Assembly: GCA_017886645.1 (NCBI GenBank)
Contig: JAGHJM010000099.1
Span: 1-61,169, forward strand
Source of the DNA: Clostridia bacterium
GTDB lineage: Bacteria > Bacillota > Clostridia > TANB77 > CAG-508
DNA length: 61,169 nucleotides
Direction: 5' to 3'
Within the stretch, counting starts at the first letter, position 1. Every line of letters begins with the position of its first letter. Under the pieces are notes generated by a model. That model worked only from the letters and a program-made list of their open reading frames with translations, made no database searches and had not been told where the DNA came from. Below, one piece after another: positions 1,100-21,213 of the stretch. The position numbers and the translations under genes are program-made.

Positions 1100-1738
1100 T
1101 TATCCTTCAACTGTTGGCTTTTTATTATTTTTAGTAAGATCTATTAGAGAATTAACTATTTCCTTGCAGTGCTCATCTGTTATATTTTCAATACTTCTTT
1201 TAAAACTAGAAGTATCTAAGCCATATGCTGCTGATTGTAATATAAATTCTAATTCGTCTAAATTTTTAACAAATTTTGCTTCTTTTGTTTCTCTTTTTTC
1301 AAATTCTTCCCATAGTTCTAAGAAATCATTATCAAAATCTAAAGATTTTAAAACTTTTTGAATTGCTTCTTTTTCTTTTAAATGTTTTTCTTCTTTAGTT
1401 ATTTTATCATATGGAGTATAATCTCCAGCATATATTTCTCCTAACTCATGGATAATACACATTTTTATACATTTTAAAGTATCATATGATAAGTTATATT
1501 TTTCTATCATCGTAATTGCTAATAAAGCCATTGAAAATGAATGGTCTGCAACTGATTCGCATTTTTCTTTATGCTCTAATCCTATTCTTACCTTTAACCA
1601 ACCTTGTCTATATATGTTTTTCAAATGATTATACTGCATATAAAACGAAACTACATCGTTATCTATCTTTTTATATTTTTCGAATGGATTTATATCTTTT
1701 ATATAATTTTCATTATTTTTATCCTTCAATATCTCCAT
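1100..1738 (-). CDS. HD-domain phosphohydrolase, YfbR-like 5'-nucleotidase family
   Basis: It carries ESVADHSFSMA and HELGEIYAGDYTP, which together match the HD..HD..D metal-ligand pattern. Confidence 0.7.
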   Translation of the reverse strand: MEILKDKNNENYIKDINPFEKYKKIDNDVVSFYMQYNHLKNIYRQGWLKVRIGLEHKEKCESVADHSFSMALLAITMIEKYNLSYDTLKCIKMCIIHELGEIYAGDYTPYDKITKEEKHLKEKEAIQKVLKSLDFDNDFLELWEEFEKRETKEAKFVKNLDELEFILQSAAYGLDTSSFKRSIENITDEHCKEIVNSLIDLTKNNKKPTVEG

Positions 1739-8469: not shown

Positions 8470-9522
8470 TTAATTTTTCCTTCTTGTTAAAACAAAATAT
8501 AAAATTACTCCTACTACAAGAATTGGAATTATAACAAAATAAATTGTATTTCCTGTTTTAGGCAATGTTTCTGGTTCTTCATTATTAGTTATTCCTGTTG
8601 TATTATTACCTATACTATTTACATTTTCATCTACAACCTCATTACTTATTTCATTTTCTCCTTCAGATGGTTCCGAAGAAGCTTCTTTTACTTCAATATT
8701 AAATGTTTCTTTTACAATTTCAGCATCTGAACTATCCCTGTCTATCAATTTAAATGTAAGTGTATAATTCCCTACTTTATCAAATATACCTCTTACATTT
8801 AATTCTTTATTTACATCTTTTCCTCCTATAGCATCACCTTCTGCCGATCCCCATCCACTTTGTATTATGTCATGTTCTAAATCTTGATTATCTGTTCCAA
8901 ATAATTTTACACTTCCTCCATCTGGTGTAGTTGCCTCTGCTAATATTCTTGTATGTTCATAGTTTTTTCCCATGCTTGAAGATATAGAAATCTTCATATC
9001 TTTCTCTTCATTTACTATTATATCTCCCGTATATTCTAAGTTTATATCATAGTCTACATATATAGGTTCCACTACAACACTTTTAACTATAGGAGTTGTA
9101 ATATCGTCATAAGTTACAGATGCATCATTATTAGCTAGCCCTTCTGCTGTTATACTAAATTCTGTAGGATTTGATGTTATAATATCGCTTTTTGCTTTAA
9201 ATGTAATTGACATGGTTCTACGTGGATTTGTTCCACCAGCTGAATCAAAGTAATATAATCTTACTCTTGTTCCATTATCATTTTCTGTTCCACCTTCTGA
9301 TGATACATATTCAAATAAGTTATTATCATAAGCTACATCTACCGTATAAGAACCTAAGTCTTGACCAAAGTCTACTTCTACAGTTACTTCTTCATTTGGA
9401 TGTATTGTATCTTTATCTACAGATACTGTAATATTATTAAGAGTATCAGCTTGTACTGGCATAGTAAAACTAATTGCAAAAACAAAAATTAAAATTAATG
9501 TTAAACTTACAAACTTTTTCAT
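8470..9522 (-). CDS. LPXTG-anchored surface protein with a cohesin-like N-terminal domain
   Basis: It has a signal peptide and a cohesin-like block (VTVEVDFGQDLGSYTVDVAYDNNLFEYVS..ITFKAK). The C-terminus is LPKTG followed by a hydrophobic helix and an RRK tail. Confidence 0.7.
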   Translation of the reverse strand: MKKFVSLTLILIFVFAISFTMPVQADTLNNITVSVDKDTIHPNEEVTVEVDFGQDLGSYTVDVAYDNNLFEYVSSEGGTENDNGTRVRLYYFDSAGGTNPRRTMSITFKAKSDIITSNPTEFSITAEGLANNDASVTYDDITTPIVKSVVVEPIYVDYDINLEYTGDIIVNEEKDMKISISSSMGKNYEHTRILAEATTPDGGSVKLFGTDNQDLEHDIIQSGWGSAEGDAIGGKDVNKELNVRGIFDKVGNYTLTFKLIDRDSSDAEIVKETFNIEVKEASSEPSEGENEISNEVVDENVNSIGNNTTGITNNEEPETLPKTGNTIYFVIIPILVVGVILYFVLTRRKN

Positions 9523-9632
9523 AAAAACCTCCTTTTTATTTTATATTTTTATTATGGTTAATTTTTTTATTTTTAAGTTGGAAAATTTTGGCGTAAAAAA
9601 ATAGATGTTAAAAATTTAACATCTATAACATT

Positions 9633-10148
9633 TTAGTTTTTCATCATTTCAAAATTAATTTCTTTTAATCCATCATCTATTAGATAACACATTTCTTCAT
9701 GTTGAGATGCATCTTCTGCAATTTTATTTACATCCAATTTTATATACTTTATTGTTCCATTTGCTAATATTTCACCTTTTTCATTCATTATACTTGATTC
9801 TGTTATGAAAAATTTTGAGTTTTCTTTCACAACTATTCCTTTTCCTATTAGTGGAACTTCATATGGTACTGGGTTCCTATATTTAGTATCTAGAGAAATT
9901 GTCACTCCAAATTGCTCCTCATTTCCTTGTTTAGCCCATAATGCTCTTAATCCCATTTCGTCTAACATTGCTGTAATAAGTCCACCATGAACTCTTAGAG
10001 GATAACTTTGATGATACTCTTTGTATTTAAATACGGTCATTACACTACCATCTTCCATATTATAAAAAGGTGCTTTCACTCCATATTCATTATCTAGCCC
10101 GCATATTACACACATCTTACTATTTTTTTGTTTACTAATTATTTTCAT
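9633..10148 (-). CDS. PaaI/hotdog-fold thioesterase
   Basis: It contains HGGLITAMLDEMG. The track start at 10172 is a TTG, whereas the ATG at 10148 has a GAAGG upstream. Confidence 0.6.
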   Translation of the reverse strand: MKIISKQKNSKMCVICGLDNEYGVKAPFYNMEDGSVMTVFKYKEYHQSYPLRVHGGLITAMLDEMGLRALWAKQGNEEQFGVTISLDTKYRNPVPYEVPLIGKGIVVKENSKFFITESSIMNEKGEILANGTIKYIKLDVNKIAEDASQHEEMCYLIDDGLKEINFEMMKN

Positions 10149-10253
10149 TTTATAGTACCTTCTTTCTTGCAATTTATTTTTTGAATTATATCATAATTTT
10201 AGCATATTTTATAATTTTTGGATAATAATAATTTTGAATGGAGGTTTTTATAT

Positions 10254-10685
10254 ATGAGTAATAATTCTAAATATGTATTAAATGAGATTAGTAAAGGTTT
10301 GCAAATGGGAATAGATTCTATTTCCAATGTTTCAAAAAAAGTAGAAGATTCTAATTTAAAAGAAGATTTATTGTTTCAATCAAATGAGTATAATAATTTA
10401 CTTGCTAGAGTTAAAACTGAAATGGAAAATTATGCAGATGAAACAGAACAATTAAACCCTATGCAAAAAGCTATGGGATGGATGAGTGTTGAAATGAGCA
10501 CTTTAACAGATAGAAGTAATTCTAAAATTTCCGAAATGATGCTTCAAGGTACTAATATGGGAATTATTGAAGGTACAAAACTTTGGAATCAAAATCCTAA
10601 TGTAAGTGAGAATGTAAAAAATATTTTAAAAGATTTCATTAGTTTCCAAGAAAACACTGTAGAAAAGCTAAAAAAATATTTATAA
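10254..10685 (+). CDS. hypothetical helical protein
   Basis: A GGAGG lies 9 nt upstream of the ATG at 10254; the track start at 10218 is a TTG. I did not recognise a family. Confidence 0.5.
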   Translation: MSNNSKYVLNEISKGLQMGIDSISNVSKKVEDSNLKEDLLFQSNEYNNLLARVKTEMENYADETEQLNPMQKAMGWMSVEMSTLTDRSNSKISEMMLQGTNMGIIEGTKLWNQNPNVSENVKNILKDFISFQENTVEKLKKYL

Positions 10686-10715
10686 TTTACTTTAGTTAAT
10701 TCTTATAAATTTCTA

Positions 10716-10745
10716 TTGACATTTACTAAAAAAATGTGCTACAAT
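10716..10745 (+). promoter_or_regulatory. sigma-A type promoter for tRNA-Leu
   Basis: TTGACA lies at 10716-10721, followed by an 18-nt spacer ending in TGc, then TACAAT at 10740-10745. The promoter is bracketed by the inverted repeat CTATTGACA / TGTCAATAG. Confidence 0.7.
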
Positions 10746-10766
10746 AATTGTTGTCAATAGAAATTT

Positions 10767-10850
10767 GCGGATGTGGCGAAACTGGCAGACGCGCTGGTCT
10801 TAGGAACCAGTGCCAACGGCGTGGAGGTTCGAGTCCTCTCATCCGCACCA
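10767..10850 (+). tRNA. tRNA-Leu, anticodon UAG
   Basis: I folded the cloverleaf by hand. The acceptor stem is GCGGATG/CATCCGC, the anticodon stem is CTGGT/ACCAG with loop CTTAGGA, there is a long variable arm, the T-arm is GGAGGTTCGAGTCCTCT, and CCA is encoded. Confidence 0.9.
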
Positions 10851-10992
10851 ATAATGTTTCTGTTCGAACGCCATCAAACAGAATTTATGCAAAATCAATC
10901 AGAAATAAGAATCTGGTTGATTTTTTGTTTACAAAAAGATTTCTTTTATTAGGTGTAGAACTAGTAAATTTATATCACAGAACATTTGAGTT
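10845..10992 (+). repeat. tRNA-flank module, copy A
   Basis: The module begins at GCACCAATAA. It then has the hairpin AATCAATCAGA..TCTGGTTGATTTTTT, followed by TTTCTTTTATTAGGT and CACAGAACATTTGAGTT. It is homologous to 11885-12023. Confidence 0.75.
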
Positions 10993-11143
10993 ATATTAGC
11001 ATGACACAACATATAAAAGACTCTTAGCATAAAGTTAAGAGTCTTTCATTATTTTATAACAATTATCGCCCCCAAAATTAATCCAAAAGCCGTAGTTTCA
11101 AGTAAATAAATTCAATTTTACATATATCCTTTATAATAGATAT

Positions 11144-11172
11144 GTTGTCAAAAATCCCCGTCCCAATTGACA
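11144..11172 (+). promoter_or_regulatory. 29-nt inverted-repeat motif, copy A
   Basis: The sequence is GTTGTCAAAAATCCCCGTCCCAATTGACA. It matches 12021-12049 at 27 of 29 positions and ends 31 nt before the -10 hexamer. Confidence 0.6.
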
Positions 11173-11180
11173 TATATAAT

Positions 11181-11209
11181 TTGCAATTTTATGTAAAATG
11201 TGTTATAAT
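11181..11209 (+). promoter_or_regulatory. sigma-A promoter with extended -10 for the 138-aa ORF
   Basis: TTGCAA is followed by a 17-nt spacer ending in TGt, then TATAAT. Confidence 0.7.
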
Positions 11210-11292
11210 TGTAGTGATGAAGAGTTTTGGCTCTGTTTCATCAGTAGTAAATAAACCACAAAGAACGCGTTATTACGCAAGGAGGAAAAATT

Positions 11293-11709
11293 ATGGCAAA
11301 ATACGAAGACGAAGGTTATTGTCCGTGTCAGTGGCTTGAGTTTACTGCCGATAATCGCTTGGCGGGTCTGTGGAGCTTGATCGGTTACAGTGTGGTGTAT
11401 GAGAAGGAAGATGCAGTAAAATGCACTCCTGACACCGCTACTTGCGACAAGGCTTTCAGCTCCGATCCTATCGCTTACGATGTGCTTTCCGCCATCGTTA
11501 AGAGGAATGTGAACGCTGATAAAATTCTCGTACATCAGCTTCACAATGGCGCTGTCAATACGCAACGTATCTCTGACATTCAGAAGACCTTGGCAGAAGC
11601 AACCAATCCGCAGCTGATTGCACATGCAAAAAGCAACTTCATTGTCATCATCGCCGATGCTTCTTATGGCATTGATGTGTGGGTCTGGGATCTCTCAAGC
11701 TGCTATTAA
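11293..11709 (+). CDS. hypothetical protein, compositionally foreign
   Basis: AGGAGG lies 7 nt before the ATG, and a clean terminator follows the stop. GC is about 44-50% in hand-counted lines, against about 20-28% in the flanks. I did not recognise a family. Confidence 0.65.
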   Translation: MAKYEDEGYCPCQWLEFTADNRLAGLWSLIGYSVVYEKEDAVKCTPDTATCDKAFSSDPIAYDVLSAIVKRNVNADKILVHQLHNGAVNTQRISDIQKTLAEATNPQLIAHAKSNFIVIIADASYGIDVWVWDLSSCY

Positions 11710-11736
11710 GCCATAACTAAAAAAACGAATTGTTTT

Positions 11737-11765
11737 CTGCACTCGAAATGGGTGCAGTTTTTTTT
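11737..11765 (+). terminator. rho-independent terminator
   Basis: The stem-loop CTGCAC-tcgaaatgg-GTGCAG is followed by T8. Confidence 0.8.
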
Positions 11766-11884
11766 GAAATTTTTATTAAATTTATTGTATCTTATAAAAA
11801 ATATGATATATTTTAGTAGATTGATTGATATTTGTATTCAATCATTATGAGAGTCAAAAAAGCTTGTAGATAATTACTTTGATG

Positions 11885-12023
11885 GCACCAATAAATGATC
11901 TATTCAAACTAATTGAATGCTAAGAAACAAAAATCAATCAGAAGTGGTTGATTTTTTTGTTTGAAAAAAATTTCTTTTATTAGGTATGAAACTATTAAAT
12001 TTGTCTCACAGTACACCTGAGTT
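11885..12023 (+). repeat. tRNA-flank module, copy B
   Basis: It starts with GCACCAATAA, which is identical to the tRNA 3' end plus flank. It then has AATCAATCAGAAGTGGTTGATTTTTTT, TTTCTTTTATTAGGT and CACAGTACACCTGAGTT. Confidence 0.75.
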
Positions 12024-12049
12024 GTCAAAAATCTCCGTCCCGATTGACA
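12021..12049 (+). promoter_or_regulatory. 29-nt inverted-repeat motif, copy B
   Basis: The sequence is GTTGTCAAAAATCTCCGTCCCGATTGACA. It ends 31 nt before TGgTATTAT (12078-12086). Confidence 0.6.
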
Positions 12050-12137
12050 CAAAAGTATTTATCTTTTTATTAAAATATGGTATTATCTTCTGTGCAGGCA
12101 AAATTTATTTTAGTGCATAGTTGTATAGGAGGTTTTT

Positions 12138-12764
12138 ATGCAAAAAATAATTTTCGGTACTACAAATAGACGGAAAATCGAAGACTTAAATGAAATAATA
12201 AAGCACTGTCATTTTCCCGCCAAGATTCTCACATTACAAGATATTGGTTGGGATTTAGGAGAAATTGAAGAAGCTGGTCGCTCACTTTCAGAAAATTCTT
12301 TAATCAAAGCTCATGCTATTCGCAACTTTTGTCTATCCCACCATCTTTCGTATCCAATAATTACTGATGATTCTGGGCTTTTTGTTCACAGCCTTAATGG
12401 AAAACCTGGAATCCGTACCGCAAGATATGCCGACGAAGAATTGTCTACTAACCCAAGCCTTCCTAAGTATGAATGCGTAAATAAGCTGTTAAGAAATTTG
12501 AAAGATGCCTCCAATAGGGATGCAACTTATAAGTGCGTTGTAACATGTATCCGCCAAAGTGGTACATATTTCCAAGTTTCGAGCAGAAGTCAAGGAAAAA
12601 TCGCAAACGAGATTGTTGAACCAATTCAAAAGCCGTATTTTTATTCAGTATTCATTTTAGACTCTGCACAAAAAACTTTTAACCAATTGTCCAAGGAGGA
12701 ACTAAAAGAAACTTATAGGTATAAAGCATTAGAAAGAACTCTAGAAGTACTTTTTCATATGTAA
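12138..12764 (+). CDS. divergent Ham1/RdgB-family non-canonical NTP pyrophosphatase
   Basis: It carries FGTTNRRKIED, ITDDSGLFVHSLNGKPGIRTARYA and ENSLIKA. The usual C-terminal FGYDP and SHR motifs are replaced by PYFYSVF and YRYKA. An AGGAGG precedes the ATG. Confidence 0.75.
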   Translation: MQKIIFGTTNRRKIEDLNEIIKHCHFPAKILTLQDIGWDLGEIEEAGRSLSENSLIKAHAIRNFCLSHHLSYPIITDDSGLFVHSLNGKPGIRTARYADEELSTNPSLPKYECVNKLLRNLKDASNRDATYKCVVTCIRQSGTYFQVSSRSQGKIANEIVEPIQKPYFYSVFILDSAQKTFNQLSKEELKETYRYKALERTLEVLFHM

Positions 12765-12874
12765 ACCTATTTTTTCCAAAGTTTCCCCAAATATTAAATC
12801 TTATACAGAGTATAATATCTTATATTTATCTTGCACTAAGGGACGTTGGCATTTATTGCCACGCCCCTATTTTA

Positions 12875-14386
12875 TTAGCTTTTCTCTAAATCTTTTACTG
12901 TTGGTCCATATATCGTTTTCCCTTTATAGTCATATCTTGATCCATGGCATGGACAATCCCACGTTTTATCTAAATTATTCCATATAAGTTCACAACCTAA
13001 ATGCTTGCACTTTGGTATTATTCTATATAAAATTCCTTTTTCATTTCTATATATTCCTATTTTTTCACCGTTAATTTCTACTATTTTTCCTTCTCCTATT
13101 TTTACTTTTTCTTCAATTTCTTGTGGTATCTTTAGTTTTTTTATAATAAGAGAATTTACTGTTTCTTTTAACATATTTCCCATTTCTGTATTATTTTTTA
13201 TTGGCTCTAATCTTGTTGATGTATATAATTCTTCATATTCATTTTCCTTGCCTAATATATTGTCTGATATTATTTCTGCTGCTATATTTGATGTAGTTAT
13301 TCCCCATTTGTTAAATCCCGTTGCTACATAAGCATTTTCCCACATTTTTGAATATGAACCTATATATGGTATTTTATCTAAAGTAATACAATCTTCTGTA
13401 TTCCAATAATATTTTATATTTTCTACCGGATATATTTTCTTTGCTATATCTTCTAAATTTTTATATGAATTTGTTAAATCTATATCTTCTCCTGTTTTAT
13501 GGTCAGAACCTACTACAATTAATAAATATCCATCATTTTCCTTCGCTGTTCTTAATGAAATTTTAGGATTAGCTGAACTTATATACATTCCTTCAAATAA
13601 TTTTTCTTTTGTTTCTATCGCTATAGCATAGCTTGTCGATTGATACATTTTCATAAAGTAAAAGCCCGGCATATTTATTATTGGATATTTTGTTGCTACA
13701 ACTAAATATTTAGTCCTAATGCTACATCCATTTTCTGTATGAACAGTGTAATAGTTTTCTTCATTTTTTACTTCTACTACTTTTGTATTTTCATATATAC
13801 TCACACCATAATTTTTACATATTTCTGTTAACGAACTTACGTATTTATATGAATTAAATTGTGCTTGATTTTCAAATTCAATAGCAGAAATAGGATTTAA
13901 ATTCATAACTTTTTTATCTATGTTTTCTTTTGCTATATATTTAGCTCTTCCACCAAAACTCTGTACTATTTCTACTTCTTCTTTTACTTTTTTATCTTCT
14001 TCTTCAGATTGTGCAAATATAAATGCTGATTGTTTTTCATAGTCACAATCAATTTTCTCTTCTTTTATAATATTACTTATGTCTTTAATAGCATTTTCAT
14101 TTGCTTCATAATATTTCTTCGCAAATTCTTCTCCCTTAGAATCTTTTAAATATTTATAAAACAACCCATGTTGACTTGTGATTTTAGATGTGCTATTACC
14201 AGTAGTTTGATAACCCATTTTATCTTTTTCTATTAATATAATGTTTAAATTTTCTTTAGCTAATTTATATGCAACACTGACTCCTGTGATTCCTCCACCA
14301 ATTATGCATACGTCAGTTCTAATATCTTCTTTTAGTTCCTTGTATTCATTTTCATTCTTTACGCTTTCTATCCAATATGATTGCAT
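12875..14386 (-). CDS. FAD-dependent oxidoreductase fused to a C-terminal Rieske [2Fe-2S] domain
   Basis: It has VCIIGGGITGVS and the Rieske pattern CKHLGC..CPCHGS. The ATG at 14386 follows AAGGAGAG; the track start is a GTG. Confidence 0.8.
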   Translation of the reverse strand: MQSYWIESVKNENEYKELKEDIRTDVCIIGGGITGVSVAYKLAKENLNIILIEKDKMGYQTTGNSTSKITSQHGLFYKYLKDSKGEEFAKKYYEANENAIKDISNIIKEEKIDCDYEKQSAFIFAQSEEEDKKVKEEVEIVQSFGGRAKYIAKENIDKKVMNLNPISAIEFENQAQFNSYKYVSSLTEICKNYGVSIYENTKVVEVKNEENYYTVHTENGCSIRTKYLVVATKYPIINMPGFYFMKMYQSTSYAIAIETKEKLFEGMYISSANPKISLRTAKENDGYLLIVVGSDHKTGEDIDLTNSYKNLEDIAKKIYPVENIKYYWNTEDCITLDKIPYIGSYSKMWENAYVATGFNKWGITTSNIAAEIISDNILGKENEYEELYTSTRLEPIKNNTEMGNMLKETVNSLIIKKLKIPQEIEEKVKIGEGKIVEINGEKIGIYRNEKGILYRIIPKCKHLGCELIWNNLDKTWDCPCHGSRYDYKGKTIYGPTVKDLEKS

Positions 14387-14442
14387 TAAAATCACTCTCC
14401 TTATGGTAAATTATTTGCAATCTTTTTTAAAATATACATTTC

Positions 14443-14471
14443 TTGCTCTTTTTTCTTTTCTATGATATAAT
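14443..14471 (+). promoter_or_regulatory. sigma-A promoter with extended -10 for the hydrolase-like gene
   Basis: TTGCTC is followed by a 17-nt spacer ending in TGa, then TATAAT. The perfect palindrome ATGTAAATCATTTACAT lies at 14476-14492, between the -10 and the SD. Confidence 0.65.
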
Positions 14472-14512
14472 TTTTATGTAAATCATTTACATATTTTTTG
14501 AGGGGGATTCTC

Positions 14513-20934: not shown

Positions 20935-21213
20935 TTACATGTCCACATAGTACCCGGAATTCTTGTTAGTCTCCCGGTTGTATCTGCATTTTGGGCTTGT
21001 CACCCCCCGACACCCAACGCACATTGTGCCAGTACAAAACTGGTGGAACTCGCCATTGTAAACGGTGCCATATAGTGCCAAAACGGTCTTGCCAGGGGTA
21101 TCTGTGAGCTCGACCTCGAAAAAGCCATTTCCGGCTCTTCCTTCTTTTCCAATGCAGACTCCGGTCTCTTCGAGAACGACGTTCCCAAATGAAGACAATA
21201 CTCTCTTATACAT
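20935..21213 (-). CDS. hypothetical Cys-rich small protein (92 aa), compositionally foreign
   Basis: GGAGG lies 8 nt before the ATG at 21213 (MYKRVLSS..), so the track's upstream extension is probably not translated. One hand-counted line gives about 55% GC. It has its own promoter and terminator. Confidence 0.55.
   Translation of the reverse strand: MYKRVLSSFGNVVLEETGVCIGKEGRAGNGFFEVELTDTPGKTVLALYGTVYNGEFHQFCTGTMCVGCRGVTSPKCRYNRETNKNSGYYVDM

What the first reader, a model, noticed from the sequence alone, without database searches (positions are those of the whole stretch)
11293..11709. GC-anomalous orphan ORF (138 aa) with complete host-style expression signals
Hand-counted lines give about 44-50% GC, against about 20-28% in the surrounding genes. 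The ORF nevertheless has TTGCAA-17-TGtTATAAT, AGGAGG at -7 and a clean T8 terminator. Its 5' UTR of about 77 nt contains the hairpin TGATGAAGAG..CTCTGTTTCATCA. The protein (MAKYEDEGYCPCQWLEF..VWVWDLSSCY) matches nothing I recognise. A recently acquired single gene that is expressed is the kind of cargo seen for immunity, anti-defence or toxin-neutralising functions, but that is speculation.
Basis: partly seen in the sequence, partly recalled or inferred. Interest (0 to 1): 0.6.

Follow-up and report, generated by a model that had tools for sequence, protein, structure and literature searches.

The report
Mobile self-expressing gene cassette, unknown protein
The GC-rich 138-codon ORF is a real, strongly transcribed gene of a small unnamed protein family; it travels between AT-rich, small-genome gut Clostridia as a 590-bp promoter-to-terminator unit, often lands next to tRNA genes, and in one lineage shows the rapid amino-acid change typical of genetic conflict.

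Summary
The ORF at 11293-11709 has GC 0.47 and GC3 0.51, in a genome with GC 0.275 and median GC3 0.14.

It is not an orphan. It belongs to an unnamed family of about 140 aa: 58 clusters at 90% identity and 82 at 50%. The family has no Pfam, NCBIfam, PHROG or PADLOC match. The predicted fold is confident and has no neighbour in PDB or BFVD.

It is protein-coding (dN/dS 0.1-0.25). In three chicken-gut or faecal metatranscriptomes it is the only part of a 5.5-kb neighbourhood that assembled.

The mobile unit is 11176-11764, from the -35 box to the terminator. It is patchy (2 of 37 species of the genus). It occurs at 96-98% identity in unrelated contexts, and 12 of 33 contexts lie just after a tRNA or tmRNA gene. 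Once it is cargo of a decayed serine-recombinase island.

GC-richness stops at the CDS edges. It recurs in nearly all sampled AT-rich hosts and shows no clear decay. One clade has 14-26 nonsynonymous against 0-2 synonymous changes.

Function is untested. I favour a cytoplasmic binding or neutralising protein in a genetic conflict.

This scan had already noted a similar GC-rich cassette elsewhere in this genome.

The parts
10767..10850 (+). tRNA-Leu(UAG) gene. The cassette lies 325 nt beyond its 3' end.
   Evidence: ARAGORN and Rfam tRNA, 56.5 bits.
10845..10992 (+). tRNA trailer plus terminator module, copy 1 (GCACCA, conserved trailer, hairpin 10891-10924). It is a repeated module behind stable-RNA genes, not a target-site duplication.
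   Evidence: It is 82% like 11945-12023. The same module follows tRNA or tmRNA genes in L009 and L019 and also occurs in L017 and in the genus.
11144..11172 (+). Dispersed 28/29-nt REP-like motif, copy 1. It directly abuts the left edge of the cassette.
   Evidence: Repeat family D2. At least 14 copies on 9 contigs, some as inverted doublets.
11176..11764 (+). The transferable unit: a promoter-to-terminator cassette of about 590 bp.
   Evidence: Homology with L011, L012 and L014 starts at 11177-11178 and ends at 11764. The equivalent 605-nt unit is the only similarity between L058 and L021 or L017, at 96-97% identity.
11181..11209 (+). Sigma-70-type promoter TTGCAA-17-TATAAT with an extended -10 TG. 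The spacer TTTTATGTAAA is conserved across the family.
11215..11243 (+). Hairpin close to the predicted 5' end of the leader. I infer that it stabilises the mRNA.
   Evidence: Seven pairs, 94.8% of cells paired, one pair with compensatory changes.
11267..11278 (+). Mini-hairpin GCGT/ACGC just 5' of the Shine-Dalgarno sequence.
   Evidence: Three of its 4 pairs show changes on both sides (GTGC/GCAC, GGGT/ACCC). 0 of 500 shuffles reach the covariation score.
11280..11285 (+). Shine-Dalgarno AGGAGG, 7 nt before the ATG.
   Evidence: Conserved in all loci.
11293..11709 (+). ORF of 138 aa, a member of an unnamed family of about 140 aa.
   Evidence: AlphaFold2 gives pLDDT 91 and pTM 0.86. RNA contigs cover 11231-11713, 11267-11715 and 11240-11732.
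11203..11625 (-). Mirror-frame antisense ORF of 140 aa. I judge it a by-product of the sense strand avoiding the codons TTA, CTA and TCA.
   Evidence: It is in codon register with the sense ORF. Those codons are 3-4% of Leu and Ser codons in the family. No Shine-Dalgarno sequence precedes its ATG.
11737..11765 (+). Intrinsic terminator with an A-tract before and T8 after the stem, so it is potentially bidirectional.
11785..11892 (+). Conserved small element: a promoter-like site followed by about 74 nt ending GGCACCA. Nature unknown. It travels with the cassette in L010 and L013 and follows another GC-rich ORF on contig C8.
   Evidence: No Rfam match.
11885..12023 (+). tRNA-type trailer plus terminator module, copy 2.
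12021..12049 (+). REP-like motif, copy 2, in direct orientation with copy 1. In sister strains an extra 1,184-nt MYG1-like cassette sits exactly between two copies of the motif at this point.
12138..12764 (+). Ham1/RdgB-like gene, the next unit of the stack, with its own promoter behind motif copy 2.
   Evidence: Pfam PF01725, E = 6.7e-32.

Best explanation
Window 11176-11764 is an autonomous, horizontally mobile, single-gene expression cassette. A strong extended -10 promoter drives a monocistronic mRNA. Its 77-nt leader has a hairpin close to the predicted 5' end and a mini-hairpin next to the Shine-Dalgarno sequence. An AGGAGG site and a strong terminator complete the unit. By analogy with known 5' stabilisers I infer a stable, heavily translated message.

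The product is a cytoplasmic, acidic alpha/beta protein of 138 aa (pI 4.7). It belongs to an unnamed family whose predicted fold has no detectable neighbour.

The cassette spreads among small-genome, AT-rich gut Clostridia. It reaches the 3' flanks of tRNA and tmRNA genes at least partly as cargo of integrative islands that carry a large serine recombinase. Those islands later decay and leave only the selected cassette. In this genome it sits in a stack of cassettes whose junctions are marked by a dispersed REP-like motif of 28/29 nt.

Its GC-rich coding sequence avoids A-ending codons. This is a stable trait of the subfamily, not a fading donor signature.

Most likely function (inferred, about 35-40%): a non-enzymatic binding or neutralising protein engaged in a genetic conflict, such as immunity to a toxin, or defence or counter-defence against mobile elements. 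It would act through variable surface loops on a conserved scaffold.
For: Coding:
- Third codon positions vary most (majority fraction 0.57, against 0.76 and 0.82 at positions 1 and 2). dN/dS is 0.1-0.25 in 12 pairs.
- Indels are in frame.

Expressed:
- In three metatranscriptomes from three studies, the only long, near-identical contigs on 9000-14500 are 11231-11713, 11267-11715 and 11240-11732. The immediate neighbours are at 0 depth.
- At least 14 RNA runs hold the ORF.

Cassette unit and mobility:
- The homology block has sharp edges at the -35 box and at the terminator.
- L058 shares only 605 nt with L021 and L017, at 96-97% identity. L017 and L021 share only a 2.84-kb block at 98.5% identity.
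- That block contains a truncated large serine recombinase (aa 2-201 of 639, 85% identical to the copy on G000 contig C98) and starts at a tRNA-Gly 3' end.
- The family is present in 2 of 37 species of the genus and 0 of 24 in other families of the order. No neighbour gene recurs.
- 12 of 33 distinct contexts lie within 900 nt downstream of a same-strand tRNA or tmRNA gene.
- The tRNA-Leu(UAG) 3' flank in the genus holds either other GC-rich cassettes or the recombinase island.
- A strain polymorphism of a 1,184-nt cassette lies exactly between two copies of the motif.

Leader: both hairpins covary.

Composition:
- The ORF has GC 0.40-0.52 in 17 hosts whose flanks have GC 0.25-0.29.
- ATA, TTA and AGA are used at 0.03-0.04, against 0.58-0.82 in the host.
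- In L021 the rest of the island has GC 0.22-0.28, while the ORF has 0.51.
- Outgroup-polarised synonymous changes are GC>AT 51 and AT>GC 54.
- The host ribosomal protein S12 gene has GC3 0.12.

Conflict signature:
- L058-L021 differ by 0 synonymous and 14 nonsynonymous changes. L058-L017 differ by 0.8 and 18.2. L017-L021 differ by 1.8 and 26.2.
- 28 of the 40 mismatches in the shared 2.84 kb lie inside the 426-nt ORF. They cluster at residues 13-14, 42-52 and 85-93.
- L092 holds a tandem array of four divergent paralogues. Tandem fusions also exist.
- No column is invariant across 66 members.
Against: - No biochemical or genetic function was tested. Sequence and fold searches returned nothing informative.
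- No toxin, defence or phage gene is a recurrent neighbour in more than 40 loci.
- The family was not found in phage, plasmid or IMG/VR collections.
- The positive-selection burst is confined to one clade. A population sample of 13 copies from human gut is almost invariant. The window's own lineage differs from sister strains at the background rate: 4 of 28 differences over 3.76 kb fall in the ORF.
- The RNA runs were chosen because they hold this gene, and contigs give no strand. They show that the RNA is present and exceeds its neighbours, not absolute abundance.
- The polarised counts use parsimony with long outgroup branches, which can inflate the AT>GC class.
- A distant tandem array (L092) is AT-rich, so GC-richness is a subfamily trait, not a family-wide one.
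- Recombination at the 29-nt motif could be ordinary homologous exchange rather than site-specific.
Confidence: 0.55

Rival explanations
1. A neutral relic of a recent transfer from a donor of about 50% GC. On this view the gene is foreign DNA that has not yet ameliorated and has no role in the host.
For: Foreign composition. Patchy distribution. Family members occur in hosts of 40-46% GC (L016, L020, L028, L029). GC3 varies between clades from 0.32 to 0.71, which could reflect different stages of decay.
Against: Purifying selection acts across the family. The promoter, leader and terminator are conserved, with covariation. The gene is strongly transcribed. About 17 AT-rich hosts keep GC-rich copies at synonymous divergence of 0.4 to more than 1.6. 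Synonymous changes are balanced, 51 to 54, where I calculate about 6 to 1 for decay towards the host GC3 of 0.14. Even the AT-rich island that carries it in L021 differs from it in composition.
Confidence: 0.1
2. A highly expressed cellular protein, structural or stress-related, whose unusual codons reflect translational selection and whose place beside tRNA genes reflects a high-expression neighbourhood. On this view it is not mobile.
For: The promoter is very strong, with AGGAGG, an MAK start and a stabilising leader. Its RNA far exceeds that of its neighbours. C-ending NNY codons and T-ending four-fold codons are frequent, as I recall for optimal codons in Firmicutes.
Against: It is present in only 2 of 37 species of the genus. 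The same cassette sits in unrelated contexts at 96-98% identity. The host ribosomal protein S12 gene has GC3 0.12, and no standard highly expressed gene is among the top GC3 ORFs. CAG, AAG, CTG and CGC are preferred although the host hardly uses them.
Confidence: 0.1
3. The GC-rich block is a structured non-coding RNA, or the real gene is the antisense 140-aa ORF (11203-11625, minus strand), and the 138-aa ORF is incidental.
For: GC-rich intergenic blocks in AT-rich Firmicutes are often structured RNAs (my own knowledge). The antisense frame is open in 18 of 23 loci.
Against: No Rfam match at E <= 1. The substitution pattern has codon periodicity and dN/dS is well below 1. Indels are in frame and length is kept down to 25% identity. 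The antisense frame is the exact mirror of the sense codons, and it stays open because TTA, CTA and TCA are avoided along with all other A-ending codons. It has no Shine-Dalgarno sequence. Promoter, Shine-Dalgarno sequence and terminator all serve the plus strand.
Confidence: 0.03
4. The bursts of amino-acid change come from targeted hypermutation, for example by a diversity-generating retroelement, rather than from selection.
For: 25 of the 28 differences between L017 and L021 are at codon positions 1 and 2, and they lie inside a 2.84-kb block that is otherwise 99.5% identical. Three sites show three states among three alleles.
Against: The 8.4-kb loci hold no second copy of the ORF (a template repeat) and no neighbour gene family recurs across loci. 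No second copy exists in the window's own genome. The differences are spread over 340 nt, and 9 of 28 involve no adenine in either allele. Thirteen population copies of another allele are almost invariant.
Confidence: 0.04
5. A divergent YhbY/CRM-like RNA-binding (ribosome-associated) domain protein.
For: A profile search of PDB sequences gives 1rq8 (labelled 'conserved hypothetical protein') at E = 0.044, aligned over residues 64-130 in a plausible register; from memory this is a YhbY-family protein. Profile-profile alignment against YhbY sequences collected with PF01985 finds the same register. The two carriers G000 and G003 show no PF01985 match.
Against: hhalign against 14 YhbY sequences gives probability 0.8% and E = 0.066. 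None of the 66 members hits PF01985. Foldseek lists no such match among its best PDB hits. The GKxG loop of the YhbY sequences is replaced by S-x-D-P in the family. 7 of 16 genomes of the genus (G000 included) lack YhbY anyway.
Confidence: 0.05

Closest known systems
Phage 'morons' (Cumby, Davidson and Maxwell 2012, PMC3594210)
   Same: It is an independent transcriptional unit with its own promoter and terminator. [quoted passage not shown] It shows presence/absence relative to related genomes, spreads by horizontal transfer, and usually carries one small gene of accessory benefit (definition read).
   Different: It is not inside a recognisable prophage and was not found in phage or IMG/VR collections. 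It sits beside chromosomal tRNA or tmRNA genes, or at the end of a decayed serine-recombinase island. The composition shift is confined to the CDS and persists across many hosts.
Orphan or acquired immunity genes of polymorphic-toxin systems (comparison from my own knowledge, not tested here)
   Same: These are small cytoplasmic proteins without enzymatic signatures. They are patchy and horizontally acquired, and they stand alone without the toxin. The family has a tandem array of divergent paralogues (L092) and shows episodic diversifying selection.
   Different: No cognate toxin was seen next to any family member. There is no similarity to any known immunity family. Protection has not been demonstrated.
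REP/REPIN elements, and module junction sites such as the pdif (Xer) modules of Acinetobacter plasmids (from my own knowledge)
   Same: A short imperfect palindrome of 28/29 nt is dispersed in intergenic DNA. It occurs singly and as inverted doublets, and it lies exactly at the junctions of gene modules that are present or absent between strains.
   Different: No RAYT or Xer dependence was tested. The copies that flank the cassettes are direct, not alternating. The motif is specific to this genome and its close relatives, and it is not part of the cassette in other hosts.
Integron gene cassettes
   Same: Single-gene units are stacked one after another with short repeated sites at their junctions.
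   Different: Each unit here has its own promoter and terminator. No integron integrase or attI/attC structure was seen. One unit is inverted (the MYG1 cassette).

Membership tests
Phage moron | Own promoter and terminator flanking one or a few genes | tested here: met
   Promoter 11181-11209 and terminator 11737-11765. Both are conserved with the gene. The RNA contigs are confined to the unit.
Phage moron | Composition differs from the neighbouring genes | tested here: met
   GC 0.47 against 0.275, and GC3 0.51 against 0.14.
Phage moron | Inserted between genes of a phage or prophage | tested here: not met
   The neighbours are a tRNA gene, thioesterase, DUF2383, Ham1 and oxidoreductase genes. 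There is no match in phages, plasmids or IMG/VR. In L017 and L021 it lies in a decayed recombinase island that is not shown to be a phage.
Polymorphic-toxin immunity protein | Encoded next to its cognate toxin in at least some genomes | tested here: not met
   No recurrent neighbour in 23 loci. None appears in the Pfam-annotated contexts.
Polymorphic-toxin immunity protein | Small cytoplasmic protein, diversifying selection, paralogue arrays | tested here: met
   pI 4.7. By inspection of the sequence I see no long hydrophobic segment; no signal-peptide or transmembrane predictor was run. dN/dS is above 4 in one clade. L092 has a four-gene array.
Polymorphic-toxin immunity protein | Neutralises a toxin | not testable with these tools
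   This needs co-expression or competition assays.
Diversity-generating retroelement target | Template repeat and reverse transcriptase nearby, with variation only at template adenines | tested here: not met
   No second copy in the loci or in G000. 9 of 28 differences involve no adenine.
CRS1/YhbY (CRM) domain, PF01985 | Significant profile match and the GxxG loop | tested here: not met
   0 of 66 members hit PF01985. hhalign gives probability 0.8%. The loop is replaced by S-x-D-P.
Integron cassette | Promoterless ORF with attC, next to intI/attI | tested here: not met
   The cassette has its own promoter. No tyrosine recombinase gene lies in the window neighbourhood. attC folding was not tested.
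REP/REPIN (for the 29-nt motif) | Short imperfect palindrome, dispersed in intergenic DNA, also as inverted doublets | tested here: met
   At least 14 copies on 9 contigs, with doublets on C9, C36 and C69.
REP/REPIN (for the 29-nt motif) | Cognate RAYT transposase in the genome | not tested
   No search for Y1 transposases was run.
Known structured RNA (Rfam) | Covariance-model match | tested here: not met
   Only tRNA-Leu is found in 9500-13000 at E <= 1.

The most novel reading that the evidence does not exclude
Small-genome AT-rich gut Clostridia may keep a pool of 'recoded' single-gene cassettes. About 20 GC-rich blocks stand out in this 1.46-Mb genome, and ORF138 is one of them. Each would have a portable promoter, leader and terminator, and a coding sequence held GC-rich and poor in A-ending codons by selection. 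The selective reason could be message stability, or continued expression when AU-rich host mRNAs or particular tRNAs are under attack. The cassettes would accrete at the 3' flanks of stable-RNA genes at junctions marked by a REP-like 28/29-nt motif. This would be a chromosomal, integrase-independent analogue of a cassette array. ORF138 would then be a conflict protein that evolves by bursts of positive selection after each transfer.
Probability: 0.2. Interest if true: 0.8.

Novelty: new variant of a known kind. Interest (0 to 1): 0.6.

Why it matters
Three things would matter if the reading holds.

1. It defines a new protein family with a confident predicted fold that has no structural neighbour. 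The family is strongly expressed in animal-gut communities and is a good target for structure and function work.

2. It shows cleanly that the unit of horizontal transfer can be a 0.6-kb promoter-to-terminator module outside any phage. Both ends are mapped, and there is a plausible vehicle (serine-recombinase islands at tRNA flanks) and a local junction motif.

3. The coding sequence appears to stay GC-rich, avoiding A-ending codons, in hosts whose GC3 is 0.14. That is hard to reconcile with simple amelioration and offers a test case for selection on synonymous sites or on mRNA composition in extremely AT-rich bacteria.

The dN/dS burst marks the family as a candidate player in interbacterial or phage conflict in uncultured gut Clostridia.

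Tried and rejected
- Rfam on 9500-13000 and on 17 homologous loci found only tRNA, tmRNA and RNase P.
- Pfam, NCBIfam, PHROGs and PADLOC gave nothing on several members.
- Foldseek against PDB and BFVD gave best E = 0.07 and TM <= 0.3.
- ESM Atlas scores were <= 0.67, below the useful range.
- The YhbY/CRM lead from PDB 1rq8 was tested by hhalign and rejected.
- Weak hits to giant proteins in the representative search turned out to be proteins made of Listeria-Bacteroides repeats, and I treat them as spurious.
- The att-site idea was rejected. The duplicated tRNA 3' end and flank (10845-10992 and 11885-12023) is a module that recurs behind stable-RNA genes in several genomes, not a target-site duplication.
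- The idea of a special regulon was rejected. The TTATGTAAA promoter spacer also precedes ordinary AT-rich genes.
- DGR was rejected (see the rival explanations).
- A Cys4 metal site was rejected, because the cysteines are not conserved in the wider family.
- The C58 150-aa ORF is only a weakly supported remote paralogue (hhalign E = 8.5e-4, probability 24%).
I built no ancestral sequence and used only outgroup-polarised counts of site patterns, which are weaker.
- An 'empty site' comparison at tRNA-Leu(UAG) gave no clean empty site, because the flank differs in every species.
- The small element at 11785-11892 showed no covariation and no Rfam match.
Full report
**1. The observation**

The block at 11200-11700 has GC 0.42-0.50 in 200-nt windows. 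Most flanking windows are at 0.19-0.34; the tRNA gene and the Ham1 gene reach 0.38-0.40. The ORF at 11293-11709 has GC 0.473 and GC1/2/3 of 0.51/0.39/0.51. The assembly is 1.46 Mb and 81% complete. Its overall GC is 0.275, its long ORFs have a median GC3 of 0.139, and this ORF ranks 5th of 1185 by GC3.

- TTGCAA-17-TGtTATAAT at 11181-11209.
- AGGAGG at 11280-11285, 7 nt before the ATG.
- A stem at 11737-11757 followed by T8.
- The leader hairpin at 11215-11243.

**2. Not an orphan, and protein-coding**

A word-indexed search found 58 clusters at 47-90% identity, nearly all 134-143 aa long. A full HMM scan of 1.8 billion representatives found 82 clusters. None carries a name or a Pfam domain, and NCBIfam, PHROGs and PADLOC are silent.

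In a codon alignment of 21 DNA copies the third position is the most variable. Nei-Gojobori dN/dS is 0.10-0.26 in twelve pairs. Indels are in frame. Rfam finds nothing but the neighbouring tRNA.

The 140-aa antisense ORF is the exact mirror frame of the sense codons. It stays open because TTA, CTA and TCA are avoided along with all other A-ending codons. I treat it as a by-product.

**3. Expression**

At least 14 metatranscriptome runs from several studies hold the ORF. I laid four of them on window 9000-14500. In three runs (X26, X27 and X36, from three studies) the only long, near-identical contigs are 11231-11713, 11267-11715 and 11240-11732. The immediate neighbours are at zero depth. This fits a discrete monocistronic RNA running from the predicted start near 11216 to the terminator.

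Two caveats apply. The runs were selected because they hold this gene. Contigs carry no strand information.

**4. The unit that is conserved and moves**

Across loci the conserved stretch runs from the -35 box to the terminator T-run. Homology with L011, L012 and L014 starts at 11177-11178 and ends at 11764.

Both leader hairpins are kept by compensatory changes. 93.9% of cells are paired, four pairs show changes on both sides, and 0 of 500 shuffles reach the covariation score.

No neighbouring protein family recurs among 23 loci. In the window's genus only 2 of 37 species carry the gene, and none of 24 genomes from other families of the order do. The other carrier in the genus (G003, same protein as L010) has it behind tRNA-Leu(GAG), not tRNA-Leu(UAG).

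Near-identical copies sit in unrelated DNA:
- L058 shares only 605 nt, the cassette itself, with L021 and L017, at 96-97% identity.
- L017 and L021 share only a 2.84-kb block at 98.5% identity.

That 2.84-kb block begins at a tRNA-Gly 3' end. It holds a truncated large serine recombinase (aa 2-201 of 639, 85% identical to the copy on contig C98 of the window's genome). It ends just after the cassette terminator.

12 of 33 distinct contexts lie within 900 nt downstream of a same-strand tRNA or tmRNA gene. My rough estimate of the chance expectation is about 2% of genes, based on 32 stable-RNA genes in this genome.

In the genus, the 3' flank of tRNA-Leu(UAG) is occupied in one of two ways. It holds other GC-rich cassettes with the same style of promoter (G004, G031). 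Alternatively it holds an island that starts with the same first gene as the L021 island and carries the same recombinase family (G022, G010; G007 more distantly).

**5. The local architecture in the window**

The apparent duplication of the tRNA 3' end and its flank (10845-10992 and 11885-12023, 82% identical) is not a target-site duplication. It is a trailer-plus-terminator module that recurs in other genomes, behind tRNA or tmRNA genes in L009 and L019.

The cassette is bracketed by two direct copies of a 28/29-nt motif, at 11144-11172 and 12021-12049. The motif has at least 14 copies on nine contigs, and some form inverted doublets 15-60 nt apart.

Sister strains of the same species are 99.3% identical over 3.76 kb. 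They carry an extra 1,184-nt block exactly between two copies of the motif. The block holds a MYG1-like gene on the minus strand, with GC 0.42 and, by inspection of the sequence, its own terminator hairpin and Shine-Dalgarno site. The window has a single motif copy at that point.

So the locus is a stack:
- tRNA-Leu
- motif
- ORF138 cassette
- motif
- MYG1 cassette (present or absent)
- motif
- Ham1 gene

The motif is specific to this genome and its close relatives, and it is not part of the cassette elsewhere.

**6. Composition**

In 17 loci whose flanks have GC 0.25-0.29, the ORF has GC 0.40-0.52 and GC3 0.32-0.69; GC3 is 0.41 or more in all but one.

Codon use is not simply GC-rich. It avoids A-ending codons: ATA 0.03 against 0.58 in the host, TTA 0.04 against 0.64, AGA 0.04 against 0.82, and CAA 0.17 against 0.89. 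T-ending codons are kept.

The host ribosomal protein S12 gene has GC3 0.12, so ordinary high-expression codon bias does not explain this. In L021 the rest of the mobile island has GC 0.22-0.28, while the ORF has 0.51.

Outgroup-polarised synonymous third-position changes are 51 GC>AT and 54 AT>GC. For neutral decay from GC3 0.5 towards the host value of 0.14, I calculate an expected ratio of about 6 to 1. Parsimony with long outgroup branches can bias this count, so I call the result suggestive. Model-based ancestral reconstruction was not available.

A distant tandem array (L092) is AT-rich. GC-richness is therefore a subfamily trait.

The window's genome has about 20 further GC-rich blocks that each hold one short ORF. 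Many of these ORFs are preceded by an extended -10 promoter and a strong Shine-Dalgarno site. Earlier notes of this scan list two of them.

**7. The protein**

AlphaFold2 with a 66-sequence alignment gives pLDDT 91 and pTM 0.86. The model has a poorly ordered N-terminal tail (the conserved motif MAKYENEGYCP), followed by an alpha/beta core.

Foldseek finds no significant neighbour in PDB (best E = 0.07, TM 0.3) or in BFVD. A weak profile hit to PDB 1rq8 (labelled 'conserved hypothetical protein'; a YhbY-family protein as I recall) at E = 0.044 did not survive profile-profile comparison (probability 0.8%).

The protein is acidic (pI 4.7). By inspection I see no signal peptide or membrane segment, and no predictor was run. 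No column is invariant across 66 members. The best-conserved polar residues (D58, S114, H81) are replaced in the array paralogues. This argues for a binding scaffold rather than an enzyme.

**8. A conflict signature**

Three alleles (L017, L021 and L058) differ from each other by 14-26 nonsynonymous changes and only 0-2 synonymous ones. 28 of the 40 mismatches in the 2.84-kb block shared by L017 and L021 fall inside the 426-nt ORF, and 25 of those are at codon positions 1 or 2. They cluster at residues 13-14, 42-52 and 85-93, and none lies in the last 27 residues.

My binomial estimate for so few synonymous changes among about 30 on the three-allele tree is p of about 0.005.

I rejected a diversity-generating retroelement. 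There is no template copy or reverse transcriptase, the changes are not specific to adenines, and another allele is almost invariant in 13 metagenomes.

The burst is episodic. The window's own lineage differs from sister strains at the background rate.

Tandem arrays and tandem fusions of the domain exist.

**9. Verdict**

Shown:
- It is a real, transcribed gene.
- Its family is conserved but unnamed.
- It sits on a sharply bounded promoter-to-terminator cassette that moves between genomes and is enriched behind stable-RNA genes.
- The CDS alone has a foreign codon usage that recurs across hosts.

Inferred:
- The cassette is delivered by serine-recombinase islands that later decay.
- The leader stabilises the mRNA.
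- The composition is maintained by selection.
- The protein is a binder or neutraliser in a genetic conflict.

The closest known concept is the phage moron (PMC3594210). It shares the autonomy, the deviant composition and the transfer. It differs in that there is no phage context.

Noticed in passing
window 11144-11172 and 12021-12049; L101 3729-3756 and 4942-4970: A dispersed 28/29-nt imperfect palindrome (TGTCAA..CTCCGTCCC..TTGACA) has at least 14 copies on 9 contigs, some as inverted doublets. It lies exactly at the junctions of a 1,184-nt MYG1-like cassette that is present in sister strains and absent here. It is REP/REPIN-like and may be a recombination site.
   Followed up: partly
window 11785-11892; G000 C8 (L002 about 1497-1625, minus strand); L010 4483-4598; L013 782-900: A conserved element of about 110 nt: a promoter-like site, then about 74 nt ending GGCACCA, followed by the same trailer and terminator as real tRNA genes. 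It follows GC-rich cassettes in four loci. It has no Rfam match, no tRNA fold and no covariation.
   Followed up: partly
window 20935-21213 (-) and about 20 blocks on other contigs (e.g. C90 2193-2492, C108 16494-16862, C58 7964-8416): There are about 20 further GC-rich blocks in this 27.5%-GC genome, each holding one short ORF with GC3 mostly 0.40-0.70. Many have their own extended -10 promoter, a strong Shine-Dalgarno site and a GC-rich terminator. The C58 ORF (150 aa, MAMYENLGFCP...) looks like a remote paralogue of ORF138 and lies beside tRNA-Trp.
   Followed up: partly
L021 1773-4605 and L017 1771-4605: A 2.84-kb island is shared at 98.5% identity by two different species in otherwise unrelated DNA. 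It holds a truncated large serine recombinase that is 85% identical to an intact copy on G000 contig C98. The same island type, starting with a gene for MKIIKEEL..FICEFSKVT, sits behind tRNA-Leu(UAG) in G022 and G010, and more distantly in G007.
   Followed up: partly
RNA runs X26 and X27 at window 11231-11301: Metatranscriptome contigs share the ORF138 leader and the first three codons (5-7 mismatches in about 70 nt). They then continue into a different coding sequence (MAKVRYNGGTKS...). This suggests the leader module is reused in front of other genes in related organisms.
   Followed up: no
L092 53-2319: A tandem array of four divergent, AT-rich paralogues of the family (142, 142, 143 and 151 aa), each separated from the next by 100-220 nt.
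   Followed up: partly
window 10707-10766: A perfect 15-nt inverted repeat (AAATTTCTATTGACA / TGTCAATAGAAATTT) brackets the tRNA-Leu promoter.
   Followed up: no
G000 C82 (minus-strand scan hit; about 1065-aa ORF beginning MRYTIGLDIGIASIGWAV): A Cas9-like gene has a promoter of the same TTGACA..TTATGTAAA type. The spacer motif is therefore a general feature of strong promoters here, not specific to the cassettes.
   Followed up: no
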